Below are positions 9,832 to 26,194 of a stretch of DNA of 36,533 nucleotides, piece by piece. The stretch is taken from assembly GCA_964631415.1 (NCBI GenBank), contig CAZVZC010000018.1:1-36533 (forward strand), read 5' to 3'. Both the position numbers and the translations under genes were made by a program. The stretch is from an uncultured archaeon. Its GTDB lineage: Archaea; Asgardarchaeota; Thorarchaeia; Thorarchaeales; Thorarchaeaceae. Under the pieces are notes generated by a model. That model was not told where the DNA came from, searched no databases, and saw only the letters and a list, made by a program, of their open reading frames with translations. Numbering within the stretch: position 1 is the stretch's first letter; the number at the start of each line of letters is the position of its first letter.

Positions 9832-9846
9832 AGAGAGAGATATAAG
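9832..9846 (+). promoter_or_regulatory. Putative BRE/TATA promoter of the surface-protein operon
   Basis: Purine run AGAGAGAGA followed by TATAAG, about 180 nt upstream of the proposed TTG start. Confidence 0.35.
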
Positions 9847-10024
9847 TCGGATTGTTCTCTGTGGAAAACCCGAGGCCGCTGCCCGCTCGCGCCTAAGGAG
9901 AAGACAATGCACGCTAGGACCTCGTTTTCCGAAACCTATGCGAGAGTCATCATCCCGGAACGGCCCATTGTTGCTTGCACTTGCACCAACCGCCGGCTCG
10001 TCTTTTCATGGAGGTGAATCTAGG

Positions 10025-13000
10025 TTGTCACTGAATGCCACACTGCATCAGATACTCGTGATTGTCATGTTGTCAATGCTCATGCTCAGTTCGGCGACTG
10101 TAGTCACGGCTGTAGCATCTGAAATTCCCGCTCTGCCAAAATCTCGAGTCAATGACGGCCTCGAAACACAAGTTACTGTGTACTTCGACTCGTCGGCCAA
10201 TGACATCATGTCGACTGTAGCGATGGTCAGTGGTTGCATCCAGCGGTGTGGGATTCCTGTTGTCCAATCTGGTGTGCAGTCGATCCTCTCTCTGGACTAT
10301 TCACTGGAAAGAAGCGACCCGGGGATTGCAGTGTACATCTTCGAGAGCAGCCTGAGTGGTATTATGATACAGAGTGAAGTTGTTTCATGGACGGAAGTTG
10401 CTGTTCTCACGACAACGCACAATCTGATGCACCATGTATTCGGCATTGGCAATGCAAAGTGCCTCCTTCAGTATGTTCCTGATTCAGAGAAACTGCACAT
10501 TGACCAGACAGACATGATAGACCTGAGAATCACGACCGTGTACTCCCTATGGACGACCGCAGAGATACTGATTCAGAGCGATAGCACTATAGACAGCACC
10601 AGGGGCGAACAGCTCAGAACACTGGTTCTCAAGGACTTCTGTAAGAACATAAACGAGATCATCTCCAAGGCTCTCTTTCCGAAGACCTACACTGGCGAAC
10701 GAGTCCCTCAGCCAATCACAAACCCAAGACTCACACAATCATGGGTTGTGGAGGAACCCCAGCTGGATGCTGCCGGGGTCGAGTTGAAGCCAATCATGAA
10801 GATGTCCACGCAAGACAACGCTAGTGAGTACGTACCCCTGAGAGAGGTCTGCCCTGAGAGCGGCGTCGGAGGTCCTATCGGTTGGCTGGTTGACGTTGTT
10901 CTGGCACTCCTTACGGCTAATGGATTTGAGGAGCTTCAATTGAACGTCGAGGCTGCTGAGGAGATCAACGATTACGTCGACGGACTTGTGAAGGACGCCA
11001 AAGACGACGTTGTTGACTGGTTCAGCGACGAGGGATTCAACATAACAGGCTATGACTTCGCCTCTGCCATGCCATCGCTGCTCCAGCGGCAGATGTTTGA
11101 GCTGTGGGCCCTGGGCGACGACTTGATAGCTGACGCATTTACGGAAGCGGACGACTGGCTGACATCATGGGTCGAGCAGGTAGTTGAGACTCCAGTGCAG
11201 ACGGACCTCATCGGACTCACACCGGTCTTCCTTCTTCGCGTGGGAACGCCAATCAACCTTGGTTCAGACTTCGCCAGCTTCGGAGCAGTGATACGGATCA
11301 AGTTGCTGCCCACCTTCGAAGCTGACGAAACAGCCTTTGAAACCTTCATGAACAACGCCATTTTCGGAAGTCTGAATCTAACGAGTATGACGAACGTGAC
11401 AGAGGCCTTCACGGAGGTCAGGAAGTTCATAGATGTCATACCTGTCCTTGACATGGATCTGGCAGTCTGTGCGTTCCTGCCCAGCAAGAGCGCGTGGCTT
11501 CAGACCATCATGAGCCCCTTGGAGTTCAACTTCTTCGGAGCCGCTAGCATGCAGCTGGCGTTCCCGCCAATCGATGCATCGAACACCGAAAGGTCATTCA
11601 TTGAGGTCCGGTCCTGGTCACTCAAGTTCGATGTCGATGCTTCATTCACTATCACAATCTCAGCACTCCTTTCGGTACCCGGAGTGAGCGGAGTTGTAGA
11701 TACGATTATGGACACACTCTCTGAACTCCTCAGTGCCACTATCACTTTGACAGTTTCGGTCACATTTGAGATAAGCAAGCAGTATGTCGGCCAAGGGAGC
11801 CCCGCACGATCGAGTGTTGTTATTGACATTGTTGTTGGTGCCAGCATCCAAGTCCGAATACTCGTGGTCATATTCAGAGGAACATTCCAAGTAGGACTCA
11901 GGTTCCAACAGACTTCGGGAGGGTCCAGCAACTCCTCGACTCTGCTAGCTGATCAGGAGTCGCCTTTCACAACTAGTTCTCTTGCAGCAACCACACTGTC
12001 GGTTTCTCTAACGCTATACTGCTCGCTCTATTTGGGCGTTGACGTAGTCGGCGTAGGAACTGGTGCAGAGCTCGGTCCTTGGACAGATACCTATTCGCTT
12101 TCAACGTCTTGGGGTAGCAGTGACTACCTGACGAGCTCTGCGGACTTGACTGACACGGATCAGGATGGTCTTCCTGATGCCTTTGAGAGCCGAATGAACA
12201 CTGTGATGGGCACGACCTATCTGAGCACCAGCTCATCTGACACAGACTCAGATGGACTCAATGACAAGCTGGAACTCGAGCTCAATACTGCACCGAACGT
12301 CGCCGACACAGATGTAGACGGACTTCGTGATGGTCTAGAAGTGAAGACGTACTTGACAAACCCGCTGCTCAACGACACTGACAGGGACAACATCACGGAC
12401 GGTCAGGAAGTACTGGTGTACAAGACGAACCCGCTCGTGGTGGACACTGATGCAGATGGCCTAAGCGACTACTACGAAATCAACCGGGAATACGATGTTA
12501 CAAATACGAAAGGCACCTACGGTGCTGTCAACTCTGTCAAGATTGGCAACACGTACTATGACGACCGAACAGACCCTGTGAACTCTGACACGGACAATGA
12601 CGGCTTGCTGGACGGTGAGGAGGCCGAGAACGGGGTTGAGTATGCAAATGATACGGTAATCGCTGCTTGCTACTATGTCAAGAACAAGTACACAAGTCCC
12701 TTAGACGCTGACACCGACGATGATTCCGTATTCTGGGAGTGGCAGGATATTCCTCAGCAATTCGAGCCTGGCACATCGTACCTGAGAAACATGATAGACG
12801 GTGTCGAGGTGCTGGGTCAGTATATCACATTCATCGATAGCGAAGGGTATCCTGACGTGCAGTTCGTGAAGACGAACCCTGTCAACCCGGATACAGACAA
12901 TGACACTGGGGGCACCATCCTCTTCAACTCAGATGGTTACGAACTCACTTTGAGCCCACCAACTGACCCCACAAACGGCGACACTGACCATGATGGTCTG

Positions 13001-14722
13001 CTGGATGGCCGAGAAAAGATTGGTCCGTATGGGACCGGAACCGATCCAAACAGAGCTGACACGGACAATGACATGCTGCCAGACTATGAGGAGGTCACGC
13101 TGGCGACCAATGCAAGGGACCCTGACACTGATTCCGACGGTGTGATGGACGGCGAGGAGTACTACAAGTACGGGACCAGTCCCTTCCTCAACGACACTGA
13201 CATGGATGGCCTCACTGACTCGGAGGAGCTGTTCGAGTTCTATTCGAATCCACTTGTTCGGGACTCGGACGCAGATGGCTTGGATGACGGTGAGGAGGTC
13301 TTGTCCTATCTTACTGACCCCGTCAATGCGGACTCAGACTACGATGTGCTACTCGACGGCTATGAGGTACTTGTGTCTATGACAGACCCCATGCTGTTTG
13401 ACACAGACGTCGACGGGCTCGGGGACGGTGATGAACTGCTGATATATCATACAAACCCGCTTGATTGGGACACCGATGACGATTCCATCACGTTGACAAA
13501 TGAGTTTGGCAGAATCAGTTTCGCTTGGGGTGACGGAGCCGAGGTGGCATTCGGCACAAACCCCACATCTTCAGATTCCGACAACGATGGTCTGACTGAT
13601 GGAGAGGAGCTCTATCTGGGTCTGGGTTCTGCTGTCTTGGATCCCGTGCCGCTCAACCCTTTGTCAAACGACACCGACGGTGACGGTCTTTCCGATGGTG
13701 AAGAGATGATCATCGAGAATGTGTCGCTGAATACCTACCCATACTGGGGCTTAGTGGTAAGCCTCCGCTATGGCTCATGTCCTGCGAAGTTCGACAGTGA
13801 CGGTGACGGACTCAATGACACTGCTGAGGTGACCTATCTGTGTGATCCCACAAAGCCCGACACTGACGGAGACACAATGAGTGACGCCGTCGAAGTATAT
13901 GTGACCCATACAAACCCCACAAACAACGACACGGATTATGACGACATTCCAGACAACATGGAGTCAACAAACACGACCGAGTTTGCATTGGCTGCTGAGA
14001 TGTCTGGATGGGACTATGTGCCAAGTCAGTGGCCCATGTATCCGACATCTGCAACGGACAGTGACACAGATGACGACCTGCTGCCCGATGGCATTGAGCT
14101 GATTTACCACACTGGTCAGCTCAACCCAGATTCAAATGGAAATGGGGTGCTGGATGGAATGGAGTTCGATGCCGATGGTGACGGTCTGAAAGATGGAGAA
14201 GAGTTCTACATTTACAGAACGAACATGGGACCGCTTCCGATCGAGAACGGTACATGGATAGGAGAACCTGGCGGGTTCAATAATCCGGACAGTGATGGAG
14301 ATGGTCTCTCAGACGGCGTTGAAGTGCACACCTATGGCACTGACCCGACAGCGGCAGATTCAGACGAGGACGGTCTATCAGACGGCGAAGAGGCATCGCT
14401 TGGACTGAATCCACTTGTGCCGATTGTTCAAAGCGGTCCGACCTGGTATCTCATTGCAGTTGGGGCTGTCATTGGACTGGCCGCCGGCATTGGTGGTGAA
14501 ACGCTTATCTTGCTCATCAGGCAACGCGGCCTGAGATTCTGGAGATCGGGGAAGGCTTCAGGAAAGACTCCAGACCAGGAAACTAAGACCCCTGCCGCTG
14601 CCAAGACTGAGGTTGCGGCCGAGTCATCCCGGGAAGAGCCTAAGGAGCAAGAACCTGCCGCAGGTGAGAAGAGGACAAGGAAACGCACGACAAGAACAAC
14701 AAAGGAGAGTGGTAAGGCATGA
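10025..14722 (+). CDS. Large membrane-anchored surface protein/adhesin with ~26 thrombospondin type-3-like (DxDxDG) Ca-binding repeats
   Basis: The ORF is open from 9938, but TTG 10025 has a perfect GGAGGTGA SD (10010-10017) and is followed by a signal peptide. It contains repeats D[TS]DxDGLxDGxE...TNP, a C-terminal TM (WYLIAVGAVIGLAAGIGGETLILLI) and a K/E/T-rich cytoplasmic tail. Confidence 0.88.
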   Translation: MSLNATLHQILVIVMLSMLMLSSATVVTAVASEIPALPKSRVNDGLETQVTVYFDSSANDIMSTVAMVSGCIQRCGIPVVQSGVQSILSLDYSLERSDPGIAVYIFESSLSGIMIQSEVVSWTEVAVLTTTHNLMHHVFGIGNAKCLLQYVPDSEKLHIDQTDMIDLRITTVYSLWTTAEILIQSDSTIDSTRGEQLRTLVLKDFCKNINEIISKALFPKTYTGERVPQPITNPRLTQSWVVEEPQLDAAGVELKPIMKMSTQDNASEYVPLREVCPESGVGGPIGWLVDVVLALLTANGFEELQLNVEAAEEINDYVDGLVKDAKDDVVDWFSDEGFNITGYDFASAMPSLLQRQMFELWALGDDLIADAFTEADDWLTSWVEQVVETPVQTDLIGLTPVFLLRVGTPINLGSDFASFGAVIRIKLLPTFEADETAFETFMNNAIFGSLNLTSMTNVTEAFTEVRKFIDVIPVLDMDLAVCAFLPSKSAWLQTIMSPLEFNFFGAASMQLAFPPIDASNTERSFIEVRSWSLKFDVDASFTITISALLSVPGVSGVVDTIMDTLSELLSATITLTVSVTFEISKQYVGQGSPARSSVVIDIVVGASIQVRILVVIFRGTFQVGLRFQQTSGGSSNSSTLLADQESPFTTSSLAATTLSVSLTLYCSLYLGVDVVGVGTGAELGPWTDTYSLSTSWGSSDYLTSSADLTDTDQDGLPDAFESRMNTVMGTTYLSTSSSDTDSDGLNDKLELELNTAPNVADTDVDGLRDGLEVKTYLTNPLLNDTDRDNITDGQEVLVYKTNPLVVDTDADGLSDYYEINREYDVTNTKGTYGAVNSVKIGNTYYDDRTDPVNSDTDNDGLLDGEEAENGVEYANDTVIAACYYVKNKYTSPLDADTDDDSVFWEWQDIPQQFEPGTSYLRNMIDGVEVLGQYITFIDSEGYPDVQFVKTNPVNPDTDNDTGGTILFNSDGYELTLSPPTDPTNGDTDHDGLLDGREKIGPYGTGTDPNRADTDNDMLPDYEEVTLATNARDPDTDSDGVMDGEEYYKYGTSPFLNDTDMDGLTDSEELFEFYSNPLVRDSDADGLDDGEEVLSYLTDPVNADSDYDVLLDGYEVLVSMTDPMLFDTDVDGLGDGDELLIYHTNPLDWDTDDDSITLTNEFGRISFAWGDGAEVAFGTNPTSSDSDNDGLTDGEELYLGLGSAVLDPVPLNPLSNDTDGDGLSDGEEMIIENVSLNTYPYWGLVVSLRYGSCPAKFDSDGDGLNDTAEVTYLCDPTKPDTDGDTMSDAVEVYVTHTNPTNNDTDYDDIPDNMESTNTTEFALAAEMSGWDYVPSQWPMYPTSATDSDTDDDLLPDGIELIYHTGQLNPDSNGNGVLDGMEFDADGDGLKDGEEFYIYRTNMGPLPIENGTWIGEPGGFNNPDSDGDGLSDGVEVHTYGTDPTAADSDEDGLSDGEEASLGLNPLVPIVQSGPTWYLIAVGAVIGLAAGIGGETLILLIRQRGLRFWRSGKASGKTPDQETKTPAAAKTEVAAESSREEPKEQEPAAGEKRTRKRTTRTTKESGKA
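12152..14410 (+). repeat. Intragenic TSP3-like Ca-binding repeat array (protein-level repeats)
   Basis: About 26 DxDxD(G) units, mostly ~23-24 aa apart, with several longer inserts. The DNA copies are diverged. Confidence 0.9.
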
Positions 14723-17700
14723 GTGATGCGAGACGGACCCTGATAGCGGCGTCCATCATCTTGATGATGGCTTTGATTGTCGTTCCAACATCGCCTCCGG
14801 GATTCCTACCCACATTACTGCCTGATGAGAATGTTTCTCCAGACCAACAGAGGGACTCTCCGAATCTCATGCTGGACGGTGAGTTCAACCTCACGAATGA
14901 CTACCAGCTCATCTGGGAGCCCAACAACATACAGGGTTCGTCACATGCGGTAGCCACCTCTCCGAACAAGAACCTCATTGCAGTTGCTGGCGGATACCTC
15001 TCTGACAGCGAGGTGCATGTCTACAGATGGGATAACGCGTCAAAAGACTACATCCATGTGTGGGACGCTGGCAATGACTTAATCCGGAGTGATGTGCAGG
15101 ACGTCGCCATTGCGGACGCTGATAACAATGGTTTGCTTGAGGTCTACGCGGCCAGTGCAGACGGCAGGATATATGTATTCGAGGCGAGGGGTTTCGAGGA
15201 AGGCTTTGTCTACCTAGACAACGCGAACAACGTCTTTGAGCTTGTCTGGGACAGCCAACTTGCCATACGTCGCCAAGTCTGGTCTGTCAAGGTCGAGGAC
15301 GTCGACCATGACAATCAGGGCGAGATTGTAGCTGGTTGTTGGGACAACCGCGTCCATGTGTTCGACTACGTCGATCATTCTAACTACCCATACTGCCCAA
15401 GTCATTCGATGAGTTTCATACATGTGTGGGACAGCGGAAACCAGATTGGAGGACGGGTATACGATGTCGCTGTCGGCGACACTGATTGCGATGGTCGGAC
15501 CGACATTCTTGCGGCAAGTTATGACTGCCGGGTCTACGTGTTTGAAGAGATCCCATGCTTCAAGCACACATACCAGAAGAAGTGGGACAGTGGCGACGCG
15601 ATGTCCAAACCTGTCATTTCTATGGCGGTCAGCAACAATCTGGATGAAGACCAATACGGCGAGATTGTCGCATCAGCATACGGCGACGGAGTCTATGTCT
15701 TCGAGTACAATTCCACCAGTGCCAGTTACGATGTATTGAGAATCAATCGACAACTGGAGAGCTGGGAGGAGGGCACTGTATACACAGCAGGTGTGTGGAC
15801 AGGCTACGAGGCAGATCCATACGTGGACAAGAAGGTCTATGGATGGGAAGAACAAGGAGTCTACGAACTCGACCCACGACCGTACCCCTGGAAGACTATT
15901 GCGATTGGCGGCAATTCCTGCTTAGGCGGCCCCCGCGATTTGAACTGCACCACTTTTCAGCTGCCTGAGGTCTACAGCTATCTCTCAACATGGGGTGCGA
16001 ATGGCTCCCTCGCAGGTCAGTTCTATCTTCCAGATGACATCGCTTTCGATTCTTACTCGAATGCGTACGTACTTGACACTTCGAACAGCCGTGTCCAGAA
16101 GCTGACTGGGGCTGGTCAGTTTGTCGACGCTTGGGGAGAGCTTGGAAGCGGCGTAGGGCAGTTCAAGTGGCCCCAAGGCATATGTGTTGACGCGCAGTCC
16201 TATGTCTACGTTTCTGATACGTGGAATCACAGAATCGTGAAGCTGAACCCGGATGGAGTATGGCTGGCTTCTTGGGGAAACGAAGGAACCGGCCTTGGTC
16301 AGTTTGAATATCCAATGGGTATCGCGGCGGACTCCTCTGGGCGTCTGTATGTCTGTGACTCTCTCAACATGCGAATACAGGTGCTGGACACGGAAAGCGG
16401 TGCCGTAGTCAATTCCTGGGGCGCCAACGGTTCGGGTCCAGGTCAGTTCTACTATCCTTTGGCAATTGCCGTTAGCGAACTGGGTATCTATGTGGCCGAC
16501 ACCTACAACAACAGAGTCCAGATGTTCACCTCAGAGGGCGACTTCGTACTGCAGTGGGGCAAGCTAGGCGAAGACGCAGGTGACTTTGGCTATCCTGACG
16601 GGATTGCATGTGACCTCGAAGGCAACGTGTATGTCAGTGATACAGGCTACGACCACATTGAGAAGTTCACTGCTTCAGGCCGCTTGATAACAAACTTTGG
16701 CTCAACTGGTACCGGTTTCGGCGAGCTTACGGGTCCACGTGGACTGGAAGTTGCTCCCAATGGGGCAGTCTATGTTGTTGACTCCTCGAACAGCCGTGTA
16801 GAAGGCTTCGCCATTCAGAAGTACTCTCTGGACAAGACAATCGGTAGTTTGGGGACAAAGGTCGGTCAGTTCTACTTCCCGAGTGACGCAGCTATCGACG
16901 ATCAAGGGTACATCTTCGTATCTGATTCCAGCAACAACCGAATCCAGAAACTGGCCGGTGATGGCACCTGCATCACGTTGTGGGGAGAGCTGGGTGCAGG
17001 GGAAGGCCAGTTTAACTTCACATCGGGGATTGCAGTGGGCAATGGGAATAGCGTCTATGTCGTCGATCGAAACAACAATCGCATCCAGCGTTTCGACAGC
17101 GAGGGCAACTTCCTGAGGGCATGGGGTGTCAAGGGTTCGGGTGATGGGGAATTGCTCAGTCCCACTGACATAGATATTGGCCCAGATGGTACGCTGTACG
17201 TTACCGACACGGGCAACGACCGCATATCGCTGTTCACTTCAGAGGGTGATTTCATCAGGACCTTCGGTTCACACGGTGACCAGCCCAACCAAGTGGACAC
17301 CCCGTACGGTATTGCCGTTAATGAGCAAGGCACCATATTCGTCACTGAGAGGGGCAACAACAGAATCCATCTCTTCGACAGCGAGGGAACGTCCGTTGCC
17401 TACTGGACAGGCGAGTTCTCCGAGCCCTTGAGGATTGAACATGATGGATACGGGAATCTGTATTTGACCGTAATCAAGGGCACTGCCATTGCATTGATGA
17501 AGTTCACGATGGAGGGCATGCCACTTGGAAGCCTGCCGACCACAATCTCGAACTATCGGACATCTGTAGACTTGCAGATGCCTCTAGGGATTACGTTCGA
17601 CCGTGCAGGGGATCTCTTGATTGTGGATACGTGGGCAGGTGTTGTTGTAAGAACGTACACGGATTTCGTGCTCAATTCTGTGGCAGAGGCAATCGTAGAC

Positions 17701-20667
17701 TTTGGGCAGTATGAAGAGCTTGGCGGATCCGCGTCCTCAAGAGCAGATCTCTGGCTGTACTTCCCAGACGACGATCCCGAACTAGAGGACCTAGAGTTTG
17801 CTATATCACAGGACCAGCAGACGTTCGTCGACATATCCGCTACGAGTATCACCAAGAGCTACATCTTCATCATGTCCTACGGCCTTGTGCGCTTGATAGG
17901 CATCAATGTCGACCAGGTACTGCGGCAGAATGGATGGGAGAACTACCGATACCTGAAGATAGGTGTCAAGAACGGTGCCTCATACAACATTGACTCCGCA
18001 TATGGGACTCTATCTAGACCTATTGATAACGCCCTAGTTGTGACCACAGGCCAAATTGATCACACTGACGAAGGTGACACCACCGAGTACATCATCATGG
18101 GGACAGTGGACGGAGCAATCTCGGCGTATACATCCAGCGGTGCTGCGATATGGCAGAGCACGGAAGAGTCACCCCGTTTCGACCTGAACGTCAGCATTCG
18201 TGACATAGTTGAATTGGATCGTCGCGGCAGAATGCCGACTTGGCATTACACTGGCAATCTTGTCACCGGCTCATACCTTGGGACCTTGGGATTGGGTACA
18301 TTCTCGAGGATAGAGGGCTACACTATGGGTGACATAGATGACGATGGCGACCTTGACATGATGCTCTCGATGAATGTCGGGACCTATTCTGCCTTGGTCT
18401 ATCTATCAAACACCGGTACCAACTCAAATCCGAACTACGTGTACCACACAGACTACTTCGAAGACCACACATCTCTGGGCGGGAACACCATCTTCGGATT
18501 CTCAGTGCCGTACCTAGCAGACCTTGACTCAGACGGGGACTTGGACCTCATCATCAGTGAGTTTGAAACCGACATCGAGGGTGTCGTCCATCTCTGGTAC
18601 CTAAGATACTTTGAGAGGACCGCGGCTGACTACTTCACGGAGGTATCCTCCGTGTTCACCACCCCGAACACAGTCATTCAGTCCGAGGCTATTCTCGCCT
18701 ATCCGTCTTTCAAGGACATGGACGGTGACGGAGACTTGGACCTTACGCTGGGTTGCGATTCTCTCTACTACTTCAAGCGTTCAGGAACAGGGTCGTCTTT
18801 CTTCTGGACTGAGGATGACGAGTTCTATGACGCAATCAACAAGACCATGAGACCGACCGAGGTCGTGGGTAGAGTGGCGTTCTGTGATTTCGATCGTGAT
18901 GGAGACTGGGACCTGACGATTGCGCACGCATATGAGAACTACACCCACGATGGCCTCAAACCCGCCACCAGTAGGCTGACATACTGGGAGAACACGGGAT
19001 ACCTGACTAGACCGGAGTGGGTAAAGCGCAGGCCTTTCTATGACCCTGACTTCCGTGGATCAGCATTGACTGAGGACCGCGGTTACTGTGAGCCATACGT
19101 GTACGACATGAGTGGTGACGGGGTGCTTGATCTAATGGCGATGCAGAATTCCAGCATCGACTGTTACTACGGATCACTTAAGCATAACAGCTACGTGCTC
19201 GCAACGTATCCTCTTGTCCACATGATAGAGATAGACCAGAGGTCGGAATCTGACTACTACTACGGTTACAGTGCGTACGACTCGTGGGATAACCATCCCG
19301 CATTGGACAACTGGACCTGTTCCATAGCGTATGACGACACCGATGACGATGGCAAAGGAGATGTTGTGGTCGGGTCGTTTGACAACAACATCTACACCTT
19401 CGAATGGTGTGCGAACAACACGTATCGTAGGGCCTGGAGATCGAGCGATCTTACACACGGTGTCTTGGAGTATCTCAGCTACCACACAGCATGGGATGAT
19501 GTCAGAGACATCACAATCGAAGACACTGACAATGACAACAAGAAGGAGATTGTTGCTGTATCTGGCTACAGTGTCTTCGTTTTCGAGAATGTAGTAAACG
19601 ATGTCTATCAGCTAGTGTGGGGCAGCGGTGATACCATTCCCGCAATGATGGGAGTCGACTACCCGGTAGTATCGACTGTCACAGTCGACAAGGACCTTGA
19701 TGGAGACGATCGGCCCGATATCATCGTGACCTCGCAGGCCTGGGTGTTCGTCTACGAGTGGATTGGCGATGATCAGTACTCGCTCGTGTACAGCGACATG
19801 GTCGCTCTCACAGGCAAGATATACGATATCCTCACTGCTGACACGGACGGGGATGGCTTCAGAGAGATCATCTTAGGAGGTGCCAGCGAGTGGTATGATG
19901 TATGTGGGCTGGCAAAAGACAGGGAAGGCTGGGTGATTGTCTACGAGAACATGAAGGACGATGACCGCCATGTCGACAATGGCTATGAGTATGAAACGTT
20001 CGTAGGCAGCTACGGATTGTACGGTGTGTATTCCTTGGCTGTCGCTGACAACGACCAAGACGGCTGGCCTGAGCTCTTTGTCGGCTATGAACAAACTAGC
20101 ACTCTGGATTCGGGGATAGACATCTGGGAGGCGAATGGCGAGAACAGCTACATCATGTGGAGACGCTACTCCACGCCAAAAGCTGTCACTTCGATGCTTA
20201 TCGCAAACACTGATGGTGATAGCTGGATGGAGATAATCGCTGGTAGTGGAAAGAGGGTGATGGTGCTGGAGCAGAACTGGACGTACACCGGAGGTGACAT
20301 GAGTCTGAAGTACTACACATATGTATGGAACAGCTCCTCCTTGGCAGAGAACATCACAGATCTGGCCATAGGCGACAGCAATGGCAACGGGCGTCTCGAG
20401 ATATTCGTGTCTGCCGCCAAGGGCAATGTCTATGGATTCGAGTGGGTACAGAACGCTACTTCAACACAGAATCCTGCCGTGGCTCTGGCAGCAAGTGAAT
20501 CTGAATGGTCTGATGCCGCGAGCAGATGCAGCGGAAACCCGATATGCTGCACTGACGCTTCGCCAACGAAAGCAGGCAACTCGCTTTCCTCCGGAAACGT
20601 AGACATTAGCACAAGATCCGCGAAGACACACACCGGATGTGTATTGGATAGGAGGTTAGAGAAATGA
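14719..20667 (+). CDS. 1982-aa secreted beta-propeller protein with FG-GAP/VCBS-like repeats and 12 NHL repeats
   Basis: N-terminal hydrophobic signal. DxDxDG.xE/D repeats (DADNNGLLE, DVDHDNQGE, DIDDDGDLD, DLDSDGDLD, DTDGDGFRE). NHL consensus WG..G...GQF..P.GIA.D..G.VYV.D..N.RIQ.F. ATGA overlap with the upstream gene. Confidence 0.9.
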   Translation: MSDARRTLIAASIILMMALIVVPTSPPGFLPTLLPDENVSPDQQRDSPNLMLDGEFNLTNDYQLIWEPNNIQGSSHAVATSPNKNLIAVAGGYLSDSEVHVYRWDNASKDYIHVWDAGNDLIRSDVQDVAIADADNNGLLEVYAASADGRIYVFEARGFEEGFVYLDNANNVFELVWDSQLAIRRQVWSVKVEDVDHDNQGEIVAGCWDNRVHVFDYVDHSNYPYCPSHSMSFIHVWDSGNQIGGRVYDVAVGDTDCDGRTDILAASYDCRVYVFEEIPCFKHTYQKKWDSGDAMSKPVISMAVSNNLDEDQYGEIVASAYGDGVYVFEYNSTSASYDVLRINRQLESWEEGTVYTAGVWTGYEADPYVDKKVYGWEEQGVYELDPRPYPWKTIAIGGNSCLGGPRDLNCTTFQLPEVYSYLSTWGANGSLAGQFYLPDDIAFDSYSNAYVLDTSNSRVQKLTGAGQFVDAWGELGSGVGQFKWPQGICVDAQSYVYVSDTWNHRIVKLNPDGVWLASWGNEGTGLGQFEYPMGIAADSSGRLYVCDSLNMRIQVLDTESGAVVNSWGANGSGPGQFYYPLAIAVSELGIYVADTYNNRVQMFTSEGDFVLQWGKLGEDAGDFGYPDGIACDLEGNVYVSDTGYDHIEKFTASGRLITNFGSTGTGFGELTGPRGLEVAPNGAVYVVDSSNSRVEGFAIQKYSLDKTIGSLGTKVGQFYFPSDAAIDDQGYIFVSDSSNNRIQKLAGDGTCITLWGELGAGEGQFNFTSGIAVGNGNSVYVVDRNNNRIQRFDSEGNFLRAWGVKGSGDGELLSPTDIDIGPDGTLYVTDTGNDRISLFTSEGDFIRTFGSHGDQPNQVDTPYGIAVNEQGTIFVTERGNNRIHLFDSEGTSVAYWTGEFSEPLRIEHDGYGNLYLTVIKGTAIALMKFTMEGMPLGSLPTTISNYRTSVDLQMPLGITFDRAGDLLIVDTWAGVVVRTYTDFVLNSVAEAIVDFGQYEELGGSASSRADLWLYFPDDDPELEDLEFAISQDQQTFVDISATSITKSYIFIMSYGLVRLIGINVDQVLRQNGWENYRYLKIGVKNGASYNIDSAYGTLSRPIDNALVVTTGQIDHTDEGDTTEYIIMGTVDGAISAYTSSGAAIWQSTEESPRFDLNVSIRDIVELDRRGRMPTWHYTGNLVTGSYLGTLGLGTFSRIEGYTMGDIDDDGDLDMMLSMNVGTYSALVYLSNTGTNSNPNYVYHTDYFEDHTSLGGNTIFGFSVPYLADLDSDGDLDLIISEFETDIEGVVHLWYLRYFERTAADYFTEVSSVFTTPNTVIQSEAILAYPSFKDMDGDGDLDLTLGCDSLYYFKRSGTGSSFFWTEDDEFYDAINKTMRPTEVVGRVAFCDFDRDGDWDLTIAHAYENYTHDGLKPATSRLTYWENTGYLTRPEWVKRRPFYDPDFRGSALTEDRGYCEPYVYDMSGDGVLDLMAMQNSSIDCYYGSLKHNSYVLATYPLVHMIEIDQRSESDYYYGYSAYDSWDNHPALDNWTCSIAYDDTDDDGKGDVVVGSFDNNIYTFEWCANNTYRRAWRSSDLTHGVLEYLSYHTAWDDVRDITIEDTDNDNKKEIVAVSGYSVFVFENVVNDVYQLVWGSGDTIPAMMGVDYPVVSTVTVDKDLDGDDRPDIIVTSQAWVFVYEWIGDDQYSLVYSDMVALTGKIYDILTADTDGDGFREIILGGASEWYDVCGLAKDREGWVIVYENMKDDDRHVDNGYEYETFVGSYGLYGVYSLAVADNDQDGWPELFVGYEQTSTLDSGIDIWEANGENSYIMWRRYSTPKAVTSMLIANTDGDSWMEIIAGSGKRVMVLEQNWTYTGGDMSLKYYTYVWNSSSLAENITDLAIGDSNGNGRLEIFVSAAKGNVYGFEWVQNATSTQNPAVALAASESEWSDAASRCSGNPICCTDASPTKAGNSLSSGNVDISTRSAKTHTGCVLDRRLEK
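15973..17655 (+). repeat. Twelve NHL repeats (two 6-bladed propellers)
   Basis: Twelve ~45-47-aa units counted; the last two are divergent. Confidence 0.85.
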
Positions 20668-22460
20668 AGAATACAGCGACACGTTCCCTAGCATTAGCAG
20701 TCTTGATTGGGGTCCTTTCCCTTGCTATGCTTTCTCCAATAGCACCCATGGAAGTTGCGCAGACTAATGCTTCTGTATTGAGTCCTCGCCTAACTCGTAT
20801 GATAGACAAGTGGCCCCTGAATCTTGACGAGTCTACTTCAAACATGGCAAGCGTTCTGGCATCAATTGATGAGCCTCCATCCATATCCTCTTTCGTGCAT
20901 CCTAACTGGGAGTATAGGGACTGTTTCAACTTCACCAATAGCGAATACACCTTCGGGCCCGAAGTGATGACAGAGGAGGAAGTTGAGGAGAACCTTAGGA
21001 ACTACATCTTCCAGCTTCTATATGGAGACATAGAAGCAGCCTGTCGTGTCAGCATTCTGGACATCATGTTGTTTCGGGTTTTTGATTCTCTGATAGTGGA
21101 TTGGATAGGCATAGACTTCATGGGCTTCTGCAATGGCATGTCGATGGCCTCGAGAGACTACTTCATGGACTCGTCGAAAATCCCTCTCGGCAAACACTAC
21201 GCTTACGATCTGCCCTCACCTGACCCTAACTCTACGATTGCCGAGCAGACTCAAGGCGACGTCACAGAGTCCGCAATCAAGGAGTACGTGCTTTGGAAGG
21301 GGTCTGCAGCGTTCTTCAATCCGAATCACCTGCTGAACTGGGTCAAACTGTACCTAGGTCTCTCTCTACAGTCAGGCGGGACGAACAATGCACTGGAGTT
21401 CCAGAAGCTAACGCAACTCATGATGAAAGGCTCACCACAGTATCAGCCTGTAGTGATACTCATGACGGCCGCCGTCTGGGAGAACTCGGACCCCGGGAAG
21501 AGCCACTTCGTAGTCGCCTATGACTATGAAACCAACTCGAACGGAACGAAGACAATATACATCTATGACAACCGTATTCACTTCAACTCGAGCTGTTTCT
21601 GGCACGAGGACTGGATCTTATTGGGTAGTGACGGGACCTTCTCAGGTACTCACCTCTCTCCTGAGAAGGCGGATGTATGGAGGCGGATGTGTGTGTACCC
21701 TGCGTCATGCGAGTACAATAGCATACTTACGACATTGGCGGCTTTGCTACCGAATGCTCTTCAGTTCCTCGCTTTCTGCCCCGTAGACCTGATAATCACA
21801 GACCCACTCGGAAGGAAGGTTGGCCCCGGACCCGACGGCCAACTAAGGGCTGAGTTCCCTGCCATCTATGTGGAGGATGGAGACCAGGATATTGTGTTCA
21901 TGCCCTATGCTCCTGGTCTGCCGTACACTCTGAATGTGACCGGAACAGGTCAAGGTAACTACACGCTGGAGATCAACAGAGTCGTGGACGGGCAGATTGT
22001 AACTCAGTCGTTGAATGGACAGACTGAGGAAGGCAAATCGGATGTCTTCTCTGTTGCCGCAGCCGGGGGAAGTCTGAACTTCGCAAGACAAGGGGTAGTC
22101 CTGAGCGTGCCAACGATTACGTCTGCATCATCTGTCAACCTTCAGTGGAGCCGCTATGATGGTCTTGACTTCAACAGGTACGAAGTTCTACAGTCGACAT
22201 CTCTAGGAGAACTAGGACAGGTCGTGGCGACAGTTGGCAACCAGGACACTACATCGTGCAGTGTTTCGAATCTCCAACCCGGGGCAACGTACTTCTTCAC
22301 AGTAAGAGTTGACAGTTCAGACTATGGGGCTCTTGGCTCGAACCAAGTAGGTGCGGCAATGCCAGAGTCAGCATTTCCTTGGACGTGGGTTGCAGTCGGA
22401 ACAGTGGGTGCTGCAGCAGTCATAGTCGTGCTTGCTCTGAGCTGTAAGAGCAGGAAGTAG
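20664..22460 (+). CDS. Membrane-anchored papain-like (Cys-His-Asp) peptidase/transglutaminase-like protein with Ig-like and fibronectin type III domains
   Basis: Signal peptide; GFCNGMS (C156); KSHFVVAY (H281); IYIYDN (D302); CPVDLIITDPLGRKVG Ig-like module; FN3 (VNLQWS...YEV...VSNLQPGATYFFTVRV); C-terminal TM followed by KSRK. ATGA overlap with the upstream gene. Confidence 0.75.
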   Translation: MKNTATRSLALAVLIGVLSLAMLSPIAPMEVAQTNASVLSPRLTRMIDKWPLNLDESTSNMASVLASIDEPPSISSFVHPNWEYRDCFNFTNSEYTFGPEVMTEEEVEENLRNYIFQLLYGDIEAACRVSILDIMLFRVFDSLIVDWIGIDFMGFCNGMSMASRDYFMDSSKIPLGKHYAYDLPSPDPNSTIAEQTQGDVTESAIKEYVLWKGSAAFFNPNHLLNWVKLYLGLSLQSGGTNNALEFQKLTQLMMKGSPQYQPVVILMTAAVWENSDPGKSHFVVAYDYETNSNGTKTIYIYDNRIHFNSSCFWHEDWILLGSDGTFSGTHLSPEKADVWRRMCVYPASCEYNSILTTLAALLPNALQFLAFCPVDLIITDPLGRKVGPGPDGQLRAEFPAIYVEDGDQDIVFMPYAPGLPYTLNVTGTGQGNYTLEINRVVDGQIVTQSLNGQTEEGKSDVFSVAAAGGSLNFARQGVVLSVPTITSASSVNLQWSRYDGLDFNRYEVLQSTSLGELGQVVATVGNQDTTSCSVSNLQPGATYFFTVRVDSSDYGALGSNQVGAAMPESAFPWTWVAVGTVGAAAVIVVLALSCKSRK

Positions 22461-22644: not shown

Positions 22645-24237
22645 CTAACTCCATGTCACAGTGTAGACGGCCATGTTACTGGTCCCGCATACGACATTCG
22701 GTTCTATATGAGCCGAAACAACCTTGTGGACACTGCCTCCAATATGAGAGATCTCGTCCCACAAGTACACAAACCACTCTTCGTAGAACATTATGTAGTC
22801 ACAATGGATGTCCTTGAGGAACTGGGCCTGCTCCGGCACGGTCGTGTGGTTATGCAGTACTTCAGGGGTGACTAGCCCATAGACATCGATGACTGTGCAT
22901 CTGCTGAAGTAACCGAGTGCGCCCACATCGTATGTGGCAATCACTGCGTCCTCAGGCACATTGTCTCTTACCCATTCTGACAACGTGACCTGCATCTGAT
23001 TGATGTTCATGATCTGATTGGCATGAATGTCTACGTGAAGTATGTACGAGCTTAGCGATGGAGTGAAGAGTAGTAGAACCACCATACTGGCCACGAAAGC
23101 CCTATCTGTCGTCGTGAACCCGGGGAGCTTCACTCTGTTCAGTAGTTTCTCGAACGCTACGAATCCGCCAGCGACGAAAGAGATGGCAAGAAGGTCGAAG
23201 AGCGGCACCAGGTATCTAGCAGCGAACAGCAATGACATGCCTGGCATTGTCAGTCTGTAAAGGACGAACAGAGAGGTACTCATCACCAATTCGAAGGGTC
23301 GACGCTTGAGGAGGAGCGCCATGCCACCAACGAAGCCCAGCGCCAAGTAGGGTTCAGTAGGGAACCATACCTTATACCAGAAGAAGTCCCAGTAGCTGAT
23401 GTCGGTTTGGGTAACCCCCCATCTCAGCTTGGAATAGTAGGAATCGGGCAGCGGCAGTCCCGTAGTGTTGAGACAGTGCAGAACCCACGGGGCTACCACA
23501 AGAGCCGCGATCGCAAACATCCCTCCTATTGAGATCAGTCTTCTTATGGCCAACCTGTCCTTGGCAAGCAGCCAGATGGCACGAAGAGGCAGACAGACTG
23601 CAGCTATCAGCACGAATTCCGGACGGCACAGGTAGGAGAAACCTGCGACTAGGCCCAGGAGTAGATCGTATTTGGTGTCCTTCCTCGGCAGCAGTATGAG
23701 CGTCAGAAGGAGCATCATCATTGCTAGTGGAGTTTCCATTCCTGAGAGCATCAAGCCTGCGTTTCGCGGCACAAGAACGAAGACGGCTTGTGCCAGAATC
23801 CCGACCTGCCATCGGCCTGTGTGTTCCTTGACTAGATATCCGACCAAGGATGTGTCAACAGCATACAAGAACACGCTGATCAGTAGTACCGAAGCAACAA
23901 CCGTGTCCCGAGCATAGCCAAGAACAAAGATGGGCGCTAGGAGGACTGACCAAAGGGGTGCTGAGCTTCCGGTGCTGGGAATACCCTGAGCATACTCCCA
24001 GGGGTGACCGTCGAATATCGTGCGAGCGTACTGCAGGTGTATCCATGCATCGTCAAAGGGAAAGCCGAACACACCCCAGACAGCGGCCACTGCCAAGATG
24101 TGGGCAACAGACAGGAGGGTGATGACTGCTCCAGTGACGAACATGGAAGGCCAACCATTGCGTGCCAGCAAACGTTCAGCTGCCTGCTTGAACACCATGG
24201 ATGCTTTCTGCACTTCAGTAGATGATGATTCGGACAC
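22645..24237 (-). CDS. Polytopic membrane glycosyltransferase (GT-C superfamily)
   Basis: FDDAWIHLQYAR after TM1, then STGSSAPLW, SGMET and RPE, many TM helices and a C-terminal extracellular domain (DVGALGYF...IDVYGL). The ORF is open to 24306; GTG 24237 follows a GGAGG SD. Confidence 0.8.
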   Translation of the reverse strand: MSESSSTEVQKASMVFKQAAERLLARNGWPSMFVTGAVITLLSVAHILAVAAVWGVFGFPFDDAWIHLQYARTIFDGHPWEYAQGIPSTGSSAPLWSVLLAPIFVLGYARDTVVASVLLISVFLYAVDTSLVGYLVKEHTGRWQVGILAQAVFVLVPRNAGLMLSGMETPLAMMMLLLTLILLPRKDTKYDLLLGLVAGFSYLCRPEFVLIAAVCLPLRAIWLLAKDRLAIRRLISIGGMFAIAALVVAPWVLHCLNTTGLPLPDSYYSKLRWGVTQTDISYWDFFWYKVWFPTEPYLALGFVGGMALLLKRRPFELVMSTSLFVLYRLTMPGMSLLFAARYLVPLFDLLAISFVAGGFVAFEKLLNRVKLPGFTTTDRAFVASMVVLLLFTPSLSSYILHVDIHANQIMNINQMQVTLSEWVRDNVPEDAVIATYDVGALGYFSRCTVIDVYGLVTPEVLHNHTTVPEQAQFLKDIHCDYIMFYEEWFVYLWDEISHIGGSVHKVVSAHIEPNVVCGTSNMAVYTVTWS

Positions 24238-24451
24238 GATGACAGTGTCCTCCCTGCTGCTTCTATGAACTCTGGATGCGGTGCCCAACTGACTTCTAAG
24301 CAACATGGCGCCCCGATAAATGTGTCCTTCTGCGGTTGGGTTATTAGCCTGTTAATGGGGCGTTCCAGTCATCTTCGTGAGTCGACAGCAAGATTCATTC
24401 ACTGCGGCGTCACACACAAGAACATCTTGAGCGGCAGTGGCGGCGGGCCAT

Positions 24452-25336: not shown

Positions 25337-26194
25337 ATGTCAGGCAAGGAACTGAAACGCGGTGGAAACATCATATACAGGTTGCTCTCACAGGATCTTT
25401 ATGCCACTGGAATGCACGGCGACAAGGTGGGTTTCAGGCAAGACGAGCAGTGGCGTCTGAAGAGTCGCCAATTCACCCAAGACTCGGATATAGTAGGTAA
25501 GATTGAGGAGTCGAAGCTCAAGAAGGGGACCAAAGACCTCACGCCTAGAGAGAAGATTGGATTCATAACAATCCGCAATGCTCTATGGCGCGACGAAAAG
25601 GAGGAGCTGTCTCGGCGCTTAGTCATCAAGCTGTTCTCTAACAATGGGAACTGGCTTGCTTCGCTCGAGGAGATGGTTGCTGAGGAATACGCTCTCAGCT
25701 TTGTTTCTGAGGCTCCCTTGATGGTGTTCTCTGTTCTGACAAAGGAAACCGATGTAGTCACCTACATACGTCAAGGGAAGCGTGGCGCGCTTGCGACTGA
25801 GAGCTATTCGTTCTACGTCATTGGACCCCAAGGAAACTTCGAAGTGTTCAGGATTGAAGGGGCGCGTGTTTCTGCAGGAGACGACTTTAGTGTGCGTCTA
25901 CTGACCTACGATACTCCTGTCGCGAAAGTCGATAGCAAGTTCGGCGACATAGGGGGAGATTTCACCGTTTCGGTCAACGACGCAGTGCTCGCTGAGAACG
26001 AATGGTTCTGCAGGGTCTTGCAGTGTTTCGCCGTAGCCATCAAGTACAGAGATGAAATAAGAGCGCGGCTGGACAAAGGACTGAAGGCATGGGCTGCAGG
26101 GAAGGCTCATCCGACCCAGCACAGGCACGAGCTCAGTCTGTTAGCTAACCCTCGTAGACTGACATTAAAGGCGGATGAATTCGACGAGGTCTGA
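25337..26194 (+). CDS. LURP-one/tubby-C/scramblase-like beta-barrel protein
   Basis: Repeated beta-hairpin units FRIEGARVSAGDDFSV and VAKVDSKFGDIGGDFTVSV, followed by a hydrophobic helix FCRVLQCFAVAI. Confidence 0.55.
   Translation: MSGKELKRGGNIIYRLLSQDLYATGMHGDKVGFRQDEQWRLKSRQFTQDSDIVGKIEESKLKKGTKDLTPREKIGFITIRNALWRDEKEELSRRLVIKLFSNNGNWLASLEEMVAEEYALSFVSEAPLMVFSVLTKETDVVTYIRQGKRGALATESYSFYVIGPQGNFEVFRIEGARVSAGDDFSVRLLTYDTPVAKVDSKFGDIGGDFTVSVNDAVLAENEWFCRVLQCFAVAIKYRDEIRARLDKGLKAWAAGKAHPTQHRHELSLLANPRRLTLKADEFDEV

What the first reader, a model, noticed from the sequence alone, without database searches (positions are those of the whole stretch)
10025..22460. Translationally coupled adhesin / propeller / cysteine-protease operon: candidate regulated adhesion-and-release system
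Seen: three secreted proteins are joined by two ATGA stop-start overlaps (14719-14722, 20664-20667). They are a TM-anchored Ca-repeat stalk protein with a cytoplasmic tail, a 1982-aa FG-GAP/NHL multi-propeller protein without a C-terminal anchor, and a TM-anchored Cys-His-Asp enzyme with FN3. Established: TSP3, FG-GAP and FN3 are the modules of thrombospondin, integrin-alpha and fibronectin. In Pseudomonas, the transglutaminase-like cysteine protease LapG releases the Ca-binding adhesin LapA. Inference: a stoichiometric Ca-dependent cell-surface complex with a dedicated sheddase, maturase or cross-linker, possibly used for partner attachment.
Basis: partly seen in the sequence, partly recalled or inferred. 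Interest (0 to 1): 0.72.

Follow-up and report, generated by a model that had tools for sequence, protein, structure and literature searches.

The report
Thorarchaeal surface trio with tethered protease
One family of Asgard (Thor-type) archaea carries a tightly coupled three-gene cassette for a calcium-repeat stalk protein, a giant multi-propeller protein and a membrane-tethered enzyme of a previously undescribed papain-like family; the layout and co-inheritance are real, but what the enzyme cuts is still only inferred.

Summary
Three + strand genes (10025-14722, 14719-20667, 20664-22460) are joined by two ATGA overlaps, each preceded by a GGAGG ribosome-binding site. They encode a TM-anchored TSP3-repeat protein (A), a 1982-aa FG-GAP/NHL propeller protein with no C-terminal anchor (B), and a TM-anchored FN3 protein (C).

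C has invariant Cys156 and His281, and Asn or Asp at 302. Its modelled fold (pLDDT 84) matches clan-CA cysteine peptidases. No Pfam or NCBIfam model matches the domain. Its only detectable relatives are stand-alone haloarchaeal proteins.

B-C adjacency was found in all 13 other genomes examined, and full A-B-C order in all 10 whose contigs reach far enough. No flanking gene is shared. The enzyme was found in 15 of 85 genomes of the window's own family and 0 of 314 from other Asgard families.

New here: the trio derives from a much wider Asgard two-gene pair (A'/B'). There both proteins carry C-terminal anchors, and some genomes have them in one open frame. In the trio lineage B lacks that anchor, has an NHL block, and is followed by C.

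C is not a LapG-family member. No regulator, cleavage or complex has been shown. My reading is a surface complex with a dedicated tethered peptidase, but the substrate is inferred. This scan had already noted C's triad on this same window.

The parts
10010..10017 (+). SD-like GGAGGTGA, 7 nt before the TTG start of gene A
   Evidence: Read directly.
10025..14722 (+). Gene A: type I membrane protein with head region, TSP3 stalk, TM and cytoplasmic tail. The longest ORF starts at ATG 9938; TTG 10025 is the preferred start.
   Evidence: The start matches the 92%-identical relative P0086.
10025..10117 (+). A: signal-peptide-like N-terminus (hydrophobic core, AVA|SE)
   Evidence: Hydropathy scan and sequence. 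Orthologues end VSA|S/A.
10118..12142 (+). A: about 675-aa head region with no Pfam match; defines the A-type family
   Evidence: No Pfam match. Matches in 97 of 400 Asgard genomes.
12152..14422 (+). A: array of 22 Ca-binding-type TSP3 repeats (DxDxDGxxDxxE)
   Evidence: PF18884 E 3.7e-44. Motif positions.
14441..14518 (+). A: transmembrane helix, preceded by the conserved juxtamembrane motif NPxVPIxxGxPxW
14519..14719 (+). A: 67-aa Lys/Thr/Glu-rich cytoplasmic tail. Its last codons carry the SD for gene B.
14719..14722 (+). ATGA stop/start overlap between A and B
   Evidence: Conserved in L008, L009, L010 and L012.
14719..20667 (+). Gene B: 1982-aa multi-propeller protein with an N-terminal hydrophobic segment only and no C-terminal TM
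14893..15960 (+). B: N-terminal FG-GAP-type blades with Ca-loop motifs (residues about 59-414)
   Evidence: Itfg2 and FG-GAP matches. Motifs at 133-315. Aligns to paralogues.
15961..17682 (+). B: NHL-repeat block (residues about 415-988), absent at this position from the paralogous B' and B_G035
   Evidence: NHL E 3.9e-57. Eight strict NHL motifs. Alignment gap in paralogues.
17683..20508 (+). B: C-terminal FG-GAP-like blades (Ca-loop motifs at 1205-1470 and 1540-1890)
   Evidence: FG-GAP_3 E 3e-33. Motif map.
20509..20664 (+). B: variable C-terminal tail without a TM. Its Arg-Arg codons are the SD (AGGAGG) for gene C.
20664..20667 (+). ATGA stop/start overlap between B and C
   Evidence: Overlap also in L010 and L011; gaps of 7-13 nt with an SD in L009, L012 and L013.
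20664..22460 (+). Gene C: 598-aa membrane-tethered papain-like enzyme
20916..21713 (+). C: papain-like (clan CA-type) domain, residues about 85-350
   Evidence: AF2 model pLDDT 83.7. VIA-align top hits are Cys peptidases.
21129..21131 (+). Codon of Cys156, the putative nucleophile in GFCNG at a helix N-terminus
   Evidence: Invariant in 43 of 43 Thor sequences and conserved in the halo family. Helix position.
21504..21506 (+). Codon of His281 (SHFVVAYDY, strand start)
   Evidence: Invariant in 45 of 45 and across both families.
21567..21569 (+). Codon of Asp302, the third triad residue (Asn in 31 of 45 orthologues)
21756..22088 (+). C: beta-sandwich domain (residues about 365-475), shared with the haloarchaeal relatives
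   Evidence: TerD and Ig-like matches.
22101..22358 (+). C: FN3 domain, present only in the Thor family
   Evidence: PF00041 E 4.2e-6. PDB FN3 hits.
22389..22445 (+). C: C-terminal TM helix followed by a short basic end

Best explanation
This is a self-contained three-gene cassette found in one family of Thorarchaeota (Asgard archaea). It encodes a cell-surface assembly. A is a type I membrane protein: a Sec-type signal, a 675-aa head, a stalk of 22 Ca-binding TSP3 repeats, a TM helix and a Lys-rich cytoplasmic tail. B is a 1982-aa array of FG-GAP-type and NHL propellers with Ca-loop motifs and no C-terminal anchor. C is a membrane-tethered clan-CA (papain-like) cysteine hydrolase with an intact Cys156-His281-Asp/Asn302 set, held above the membrane by a beta-sandwich and an FN3 domain.

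The cassette is a specialised offshoot of a two-gene A'/B' module that is widespread in Asgard archaea. In that module both partners carry C-terminal anchors. In the trio lineage B lacks its membrane-proximal stalk and TM, carries an NHL block, and the enzyme gene sits behind it.

Shown: the anatomy, the coupling, the co-inheritance, the fold and the conservation of the catalytic residues. Inferred: A and B associate on the surface, and C acts in cis as their dedicated processing peptidase, either maturing the complex or releasing the B ectodomain. The substrate, the Ca dependence and any regulation are untested.
For: The overlaps and SD sites are real, and GGAGG is conserved before B and C in every orthologous locus. 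B-C adjacency was found in all 13 other genomes examined and full A-B-C order in all 10 whose contigs reach far enough. No window flank gene is shared with 11 other loci.

Among 41 genomes, the seven that have C are exactly the seven with strong A and B orthologues.

For C, Cys156 and His281 are invariant, and position 302 is Asn or Asp in 45 sequences. The same residues are kept in a distant haloarchaeal family (hhalign probability 97.4%, E 1.6e-11, 329 columns). The AF2 model has pLDDT 83.7 and pTM 0.82. It places Cys at a helix N-terminus, His at a strand start and Asp302/Asn303 just after the next strand. About 35 of the top 50 VIA-align matches over model residues 1-271 are papain-like cysteine peptidases: a T6SS effector CTD at Z 8.6, SpeB 7.3, interpain 7.1, staphopain C 7.0, IdeS 6.4, C39-like 6.0.

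The A'/B' pair was adjacent in all 12 loci checked. B' has a C-terminal TM in 11 of those 12, whereas no trio B has one. A' and B' lie in a single 4901-aa open frame with a consistent membrane topology in one genome, and similarly long frames occur in four more.
Against: There is no biochemical, expression or interaction evidence; no RNA run holds the locus. The fold matches are middling (Z at most 8.6) and rest on one AF2 model.

The haloarchaeal relatives of C stand alone, with no A- or B-like neighbours. The enzyme family is therefore not intrinsically tied to such partners.

Co-inheritance of operon genes among related genomes is not independent evidence of physical interaction. The catalytic domain sits two Ig-like domains above the membrane, which does not favour juxtamembrane cleavage of A. 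B's N-terminal segment may be an uncleaved anchor, which would weaken the 'lost its anchor' argument.
Confidence: 0.5

Rival explanations
1. A LapG-type regulated sheddase. C releases the Ca-binding adhesin A or the A-B complex from the cell in response to a signal, giving switchable attachment, for example to partner cells.
For: The logic is the same as in the Lap system: a large Ca-binding repeat adhesin plus a dedicated Cys-His-Asp enzyme in one operon (PMC3032545, PMC4359373). C's catalytic set is intact. A has a conserved juxtamembrane motif and a cytoplasmic tail.
Against: No PF06035 match to C or anywhere in the genome. No LapD-like sensor or any conserved regulator lies beside the cassette. 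A's tail is low-complexity with no recognisable domain. C is itself membrane-tethered, with its active site far from the membrane.
Confidence: 0.15
2. A surface capture-and-digest platform. A and B bind external polymers, proteins or other cells, and C degrades captured external proteins for nutrition or attack rather than processing A or B.
For: The closest structural neighbours of C are secreted broad-specificity endopeptidases and toxin domains: SpeB, interpain, staphopain, IdeS and T6SS/CDI toxin domains. The haloarchaeal relatives work without A/B partners. NHL and FG-GAP propellers are generic ligand-binding scaffolds.
Against: The strict 1:1:1 translational coupling and the exact co-occurrence with one specific A/B subfamily are more than a general protease would need. 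The commoner A'/B' pairs manage without any such enzyme.
Confidence: 0.2
3. A cross-linker or transpeptidase. C uses its Cys-His-Asx centre as a transglutaminase-type or transpeptidase-type enzyme to attach anchor-less B covalently to A or to the envelope.
For: B lacks the C-terminal TM that paralogous B' proteins have. The papain-like fold also houses transglutaminases and isopeptidases, and PeiR appears in the list at Z 5.5.
Against: B's C-terminal tail is not conserved apart from the SD-encoded Arg-Arg, so no sorting signal is visible. Transglutaminase-type structures rank below the endopeptidases. No Transglut_core match was found in 45 members.
Confidence: 0.1
4. C is merely co-transcribed: a general surface protease with no functional relation to A or B.
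For: Operon membership alone does not prove joint function. The relatives of C in haloarchaea are independent genes.
Against: The adjacency, the SD coupling and the identical phyletic pattern persist across at least 8 genera at 45-60% protein identity, while all flanks changed.
Confidence: 0.05

Closest known systems
Lap system of Pseudomonas fluorescens (LapA adhesin, LapG Peptidase_C93 protease, LapD receptor; PMC3032545, PMC4359373)
   Same: A giant Ca-binding repeat surface protein is encoded together with a dedicated Cys-His-Asp enzyme of the wider papain/transglutaminase-like kind. The idea is post-translational control of an adhesin by proteolysis.
   Different: There is no sequence membership: PF06035 was not matched. 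There is no c-di-GMP receptor. A is Sec-signal and TM anchored rather than a T1SS/outer-membrane-retained RTX adhesin. C is membrane-tethered with FN3 rather than a soluble periplasmic protein. A second giant propeller protein is part of the unit.
Clan CA secreted cysteine peptidases (streptopain/interpain C10, staphopain C47, IdeS C66, C39-like domains)
   Same: The predicted fold is shared. The Cys sits at a helix N-terminus, His on a strand, and Asn/Asp about 20 residues later. All are extracytoplasmic.
   Different: No detectable sequence similarity to any Pfam, NCBIfam or PDB entry. Structural Z scores are only 5.5-8.6. C has a large helical region before the nucleophile and a C-terminal beta-sandwich-FN3-TM tether.
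Integrin alpha subunits and integrin-repeat proteins already listed as Asgard eukaryotic signature proteins (Liu et al. 2021, as cited in PMC9258230)
   Same: FG-GAP blades with DxDxDG Ca loops. In the ancestral A'/B' module, two co-encoded type I membrane proteins are presumed to pair.
   Different: There is no beta-subunit-like VWA/betaI domain; the partner is a TSP3-repeat protein. Trio B has no TM, thigh/calf legs or GFFKR motif. NHL propellers are inserted.
Bacterial TSP3-repeat adhesion proteins (Myxococcus CglD, MtsC/MtsD; NCBIfam NF033765, NF047639, NF047638)
   Same: Long arrays of thrombospondin type 3 Ca-binding repeats in cell-surface adhesion or cohesion proteins. There are partial HMM matches.
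   Different: Scores are far below the family cut-offs (179.6 versus 400 bits for CglD) and are driven by the repeats alone. The head domain, TM and tail, and the gene partners all differ.
Haloarchaeal hypothetical proteins (for example in Halorubrum, Halobellus, Haloarcula, Halorussus, Natronomonas; P0045 family)
   Same: These are true distant homologues of C's catalytic and beta-sandwich domains, with the same invariant Cys, His and Asp and a C-terminal TM.
   Different: They have a twin-arginine-type N-terminus and no FN3. They are stand-alone genes without TSP3 or propeller neighbours.

Membership tests
LapG / Peptidase_C93 (bacterial transglutaminase-like cysteine proteinase, PF06035) | Sequence match to PF06035 | tested here: not met
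   No match to C at E<=0.01. No match in any of 45 family members at E<=10. No match anywhere in the genome at E<=1; the genome is 85% complete.
LapG / Peptidase_C93 (bacterial transglutaminase-like cysteine proteinase, PF06035) | Cys-His-Asp catalytic triad in that order | tested here: met
   C156, H281 and D302 in the window. Cys and His are invariant; position 302 is Asn or Asp in orthologues.
LapG / Peptidase_C93 (bacterial transglutaminase-like cysteine proteinase, PF06035) | Partner LapD-type c-di-GMP receptor that sequesters the protease | tested here: not met
   No HAMP, GGDEF or EAL protein among the window's ORFs. No conserved flanking gene in 11 loci.
LapG / Peptidase_C93 (bacterial transglutaminase-like cysteine proteinase, PF06035) | Substrate is a T1SS-exported adhesin with an N-terminal retention module and a di-alanine site | tested here: not met
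   A has a Sec-type signal, a C-terminal TM and a cytoplasmic tail. No cleavage site was tested.
Clan CA (papain-like) cysteine peptidase fold | Nucleophile Cys at the N-terminus of a helix packed against a beta-sheet bearing His | tested here: met
   In the AF2 model (pLDDT 83.7), Cys is model residue 77 in helix 75-89 and His is residue 202 at the start of strand 202-211. Most of the top 50 VIA matches are clan CA peptidases, Z 5.0-8.6. Triad distances could not be measured because no coordinates were available.
Clan CA (papain-like) cysteine peptidase fold | Conserved Cys and His, with Asn/Asp 16-21 residues after His | tested here: met
   for the Thor family. for conservation across the Thor and haloarchaeal families.
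Clan CA (papain-like) cysteine peptidase fold | Oxyanion-hole Gln/Asn a few residues before the Cys | tested here: inconclusive
   No Gln or Asn is conserved at -5 to -8 in both families. An invariant Asn92 lies far upstream.
Clan CA (papain-like) cysteine peptidase fold | Thiol-dependent hydrolase activity | not testable with these tools
   Needs enzyme assays.
Specific families C10, C47, C39 and C39-like | Sequence match to the family model | tested here: inconclusive
   No Pfam hit in 45 members and no PDB sequence hit. Structural Z scores of 5.5-7.3 to their members show a shared fold only.
Thrombospondin type 3 repeats (PF18884 TSP3_bac) | Repeated DxDxDGxxDxxE Ca-binding motif matching the Pfam model | tested here: met
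   E 3.7e-44, 148.6 bits against a cut-off of 25. 22 motifs.
Integrin alpha-type FG-GAP propeller proteins | FG-GAP repeats with Ca-binding loops | tested here: met
   FG-GAP_3 E 3e-33 and Itfg2 E 6.7e-9. 16 Ca-loop motifs.
Integrin alpha-type FG-GAP propeller proteins | C-terminal TM anchor, and pairing with a beta subunit carrying a VWA/betaI domain | tested here: not met
   Trio B has no C-terminal TM. A has no VWA domain. Paralogous B' proteins do have a C-terminal TM.

The most novel reading that the evidence does not exclude
The A'/B' pair is an Asgard-wide, Ca-dependent, two-subunit surface receptor analogous to integrins. The trio is a protease-gated derivative in which a tethered, previously undescribed clan-CA peptidase sheds or activates the propeller subunit. 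That would give these archaea switchable attachment to surfaces or syntrophic partners, a prokaryotic counterpart of ectodomain shedding of eukaryotic adhesion receptors.
Probability: 0.15. Interest if true: 0.8.

Novelty: new variant of a known kind. Interest (0 to 1): 0.55.

Why it matters
How Asgard archaea touch surfaces and partner cells is central to models of eukaryote origins, yet almost nothing is known about their surface proteins. This work defines three things. First, a widely distributed Asgard two-gene module of giant Ca-binding surface proteins (TSP3 stalk plus FG-GAP propellers). Second, a lineage-specific derivative with its own tethered cysteine peptidase. Third, a peptidase-like family with no database model, whose only other members are in culturable, genetically tractable haloarchaea. 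That last point makes the enzyme's specificity testable now. If the enzyme processes its operon partners, this would be an archaeal case of proteolytic control of an adhesion complex, evolved independently of the bacterial Lap system.

Tried and rejected
- ESM Atlas: the window's sequence is not held. The homologue P0007 gave only FN3-driven hits, plus a weak structural match to a 457-aa archaeal hypothetical protein that may belong to the haloarchaeal family. The A orthologue P0093 has no model and gave no hit.
Context was obtained through the genome search, the fetch from genomes and the search for related loci instead.
- The first AF2 run of full-length C, with 18 close orthologues, was poor in the catalytic part (pLDDT 61). 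It was superseded by the 45-sequence run.
- Foldseek against the PDB returned only Ig-like noise from the beta-sandwich.
- Profile searches against PDB sequences found FN3 only or nothing meaningful.
- An exhaustive HMM search of 1.84 billion representatives found only orthologues, one haloarchaeal protein at E 7e-4, and a repeat protein (P0044, E 1.3e-4) that I regard as spurious. No form fused to a larger protein was found.
- I considered that C's beta-sandwich-FN3-TM part is the detached C-terminus of an ancestral B. BLASTP finds no similarity between C and B', B_G035 or B, so this is unsupported.
- I considered that A's head is an internal duplication. This is rejected: the two matched blocks are different regions, separated by an insert in A'.
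- I looked for a sorting signal in B's C-terminal tail. The only conserved feature is Arg-Arg, which is explained by the embedded SD AGGAGG.
- NCBIfam reports no archaeosortase-type C-terminal sorting domain for A or C.
- The haloarchaeal loci show no TSP3-rich or propeller giants consistently beside the C homologue.

Full report
**1. Observation**

The window is contig C18 of an 85%-complete Thorarchaeota-type Asgard MAG. The organism names come from source labels on orthologues.

Three + strand ORFs lie at 9938/10025-14722, 14719-20667 and 20664-22460. The ATGA overlaps at 14719-14722 and 20664-20667 were read directly. Each start has an SD-like motif upstream: GGAGGTGA at 10010-10017, AAGGAGAG at 14702-14709 and AGGAGGT at 20650-20656.

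**2. The three proteins**

*Protein A* has a signal-like N-terminus (AVA|SE) and a head of about 675 aa with no Pfam match. Then come 22 TSP3-type DxDxDGxxDxxE motifs (PF18884, E 3.7e-44). A conserved juxtamembrane motif, a TM helix and a 67-aa Lys/Thr/Glu-rich tail follow.

*Protein B* (1982 aa) contains:
- four FG-GAP-type Ca-loop blades at residues 133-315;
- an NHL block at about 415-988 (NHL E 3.9e-57, eight strict motifs);
- twelve more Ca-loop blades at 1205-1890 (FG-GAP_3 E 3e-33).

Its only hydrophobic segment is at residues 7-25.

*Protein C* (598 aa) has an N-terminal hydrophobic segment and a 270-aa region with no Pfam or NCBIfam match. A beta-sandwich, an FN3 domain (E 4.2e-6), a TM helix and a short basic end follow.

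**3. What C is**

In 45 Thor-type sequences Cys156 (G-F-C-x-G) and His281 (S-H-F-V) are invariant wherever the position is covered. Position 302 is Asn in 31 and Asp in 14; Asn303 is present in 44 of 45.

A profile of residues 80-352 was scored against 1.84 billion representative proteins. It found only orthologues plus one 461-aa protein at E 7e-4. That protein belongs to a haloarchaeal family found in Natronomonas, Halorubrum, Halobellus, Haloarcula, Halorussus and others. Profile-profile comparison of the two families gives 97.4% probability, E 1.6e-11, over 329 columns. It aligns GxCxGM, H-x-V-x-A-Y-D-Y and Y-D across both families. Nine columns are invariant across both families, including the Cys and the His.

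With the combined 45-sequence alignment, AlphaFold2 gives pLDDT 83.7 and pTM 0.82 for residues 80-480. The Cys sits at the N-terminus of a helix, the His at the first residue of a strand, and Asp302/Asn303 just after the next strand.

An exhaustive structural comparison against 48,161 PDB representatives puts papain-like cysteine peptidases in most of the top 50 places for model residues 1-271:
- a T6SS effector CTD, Z 8.6;
- SpeB 7.3, interpain 7.1, staphopain C 7.0, IdeS 6.4;
- ZUFSP and UfSP, a C39-like peptidase (6.0), PCAT1 and ComA, PeiR, and cathepsins.

The C-terminal part of the model matches TerD and Ig-like sandwiches. The Z values are middling, so the fold call rests on the consistency of the list together with the motif positions.

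There is no sequence-level membership of any described family. None of 45 members matched a Pfam model at E<=10, no PDB sequence matched, and PF06035 (the LapG family) is absent from C and from the whole genome at E<=1.

I conclude that C is a member of an undescribed papain-like family with an intact catalytic set. It is most likely a peptidase or amidase.

**4. Is the trio a unit?**

Six other genomes from different genera of the same family have C at 46-51% identity, and all have B immediately upstream. Four of the six also have A on the same contig; in a fifth (L013) the contig starts inside A. Seven further genomes add five complete A-B-C loci and two B-C loci cut by contig ends. NCBI locus tags of two further MAGs place exactly one gene between A and C.

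The A-B ATGA overlap recurs in four loci. The B-C junction is either an overlap or a gap of 7-13 nt. GGAGG sits about 6-9 nt before the B and C starts in every locus. This explains the otherwise odd conservation of K-E-G at the end of A and R-R at the end of B.

None of eight flanking genes of the window recurs beside the trio in 11 other loci.

Among 41 genomes, those with C, with a strong A orthologue and with a strong B orthologue are the same seven. In a 400-genome sample of the phylum, C was found in 15 of 85 genomes of the window's family and in 0 of 314 others. It was not found in three congeners of the window's genome. The genomes are related, so these counts are descriptive rather than a statistical test.

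**5. Where the trio comes from**

The A head region matches 97 of 400 Asgard genomes in at least 13 families. These matches lie in longer A' proteins of about 2100-2250 aa with about 23 TSP3 motifs. Each A' was adjacent to a B' propeller protein of 2600-2900 aa in all 10 loci fetched, once in the reverse order. The same pairing occurs in the window's own genome (contig C17, 2180 and 2646 aa). A shorter pair (1545 and 1829 aa) is found in another family. None of these pairs is followed by a C-like gene.

B' carries a C-terminal TM plus a basic end in 11 of these 12 loci. No trio B carries one: 7 by reading the C-termini and 7 more by hydropathy scan. The NHL block of trio B is absent at the corresponding position of B' and B_G035.

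In one genome A' and B' form a single 4901-aa open frame. Its hydrophobic segments give a consistent topology: signal, A ectodomain, TM, tail, B signal-anchor, B ectodomain, TM. Frames of 4271-4885 aa occur in four more genomes of that genus. This points to the A-type and B-type proteins working together.

Trio-bearing genomes keep an A'/B' pair as well. The trio is therefore an added specialised paralogue, not a replacement.

**6. Mechanism**

Shown: the anatomy, the coupling, the co-inheritance, the fold, the conservation of the catalytic residues, and the correlated differences from the ancestral pair.

Inferred: A and B associate at the surface, and C is their dedicated tethered peptidase. 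Whether it matures, releases or cross-links them cannot be decided here.

Against a strict LapG analogy: there is no homology, no regulator, a low-complexity tail on A, and a catalytic domain held two Ig-like domains above the membrane. A capture-and-digest role on external proteins is a serious rival, because the haloarchaeal relatives are stand-alone and the nearest folds are broad-specificity secreted proteases.

**7. Comparison and novelty**

Integrin-repeat proteins have been listed among Asgard eukaryotic signature proteins (Liu et al. 2021, as cited in PMC9258230). I found no paper in the held library that describes TSP3/FG-GAP gene pairs or an associated peptidase in Asgard archaea.

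The kind of system, a Ca-binding adhesin with a dedicated Cys-His-Asp enzyme, is known from the bacterial Lap system (PMC3032545, PMC4359373). Here the enzyme family, the partner proteins, the anchoring and the host domain all differ. I therefore class it as a new variant of a known kind.

**8. Limits**

- No expression data: no RNA holder is listed for the locus.
- No access to model coordinates.
- The ESM Atlas gave nothing usable.

Noticed in passing
G000 contig C17:18646-33130 (locus L044:47-14531): The same genome holds a paralogous pair. A' is 2180 aa with TSP3 repeats, a TM and a tail. B' is 2646 aa with FG-GAP, carrageenase-like and PQQ-like propellers and a C-terminal TM. They are adjacent and no third enzyme gene follows. 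The same pair is adjacent in 10 other Asgard loci.
   Followed up: yes
L062 (G023:C28:9500-27500), minus strand: A' and B' lie in one 4901-aa open frame. The A' TM and tail are followed directly by B's signal-like segment, giving a topology-consistent three-TM fusion. Open frames of 4271-4885 aa are listed for four more genomes of that genus. Whether this is a true fusion or a lost stop codon with an internal start is open.
   Followed up: partly
L014-L039 (haloarchaeal loci); proteins P0045-P0085: A family of about 460-aa haloarchaeal hypothetical proteins with a twin-arginine-type N-terminus, the same Cys/His/Asp motifs, the same beta-sandwich and a C-terminal TM. It has no Pfam model and occurs in culturable genera (Halorubrum, Halobellus, Haloarcula, Halorussus, Halogranum).
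   Followed up: partly
window 14700-14722 and 20645-20667; junctions in L008-L013: The conserved last residues of A (K-E-G...) and of B (R-R) are encoded by the GGAGG ribosome-binding sites of the next gene. This is protein-level 'conservation' caused by a nucleotide signal.
   Followed up: yes
window 14390-14440 (A residues about 1485-1501): A juxtamembrane motif G-x-N/D-P-x-V/I-P-I-x-x-G-x-P-x-W, directly before the TM, is conserved in all trio-type A orthologues read. It is not in A' or in the G035 protein. No function is known; it could be a recognition or cleavage site.
   Followed up: no
window 9840-9846: ATATAAG lies about 180 nt upstream of the TTG start of A, in the 289-nt gap after the divergent dehydrogenase gene. 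It is a possible archaeal TATA box and was not tested.
   Followed up: no
window 27996-33599: Two adjacent large genes (924 and 942 aa) with FtsX/MacB-type permease domains abut head to tail at 30770/30771. They are probably a paired ABC-type efflux or lipoprotein-release-like permease.
   Followed up: no
window 22645-24306 (-), 25337-26194 (+), 26375-27766 (+), 1793-3775 (+), 5690-7231 (-): Several sizeable ORFs around the cassette have no Pfam match at E<=0.001.
   Followed up: no
L052 (G039:C23) and L063 (G399:C7): In two genomes of other Asgard families the B-type gene lies upstream of the A-type gene, so the pair order is not fixed outside the window's family.
   Followed up: partly
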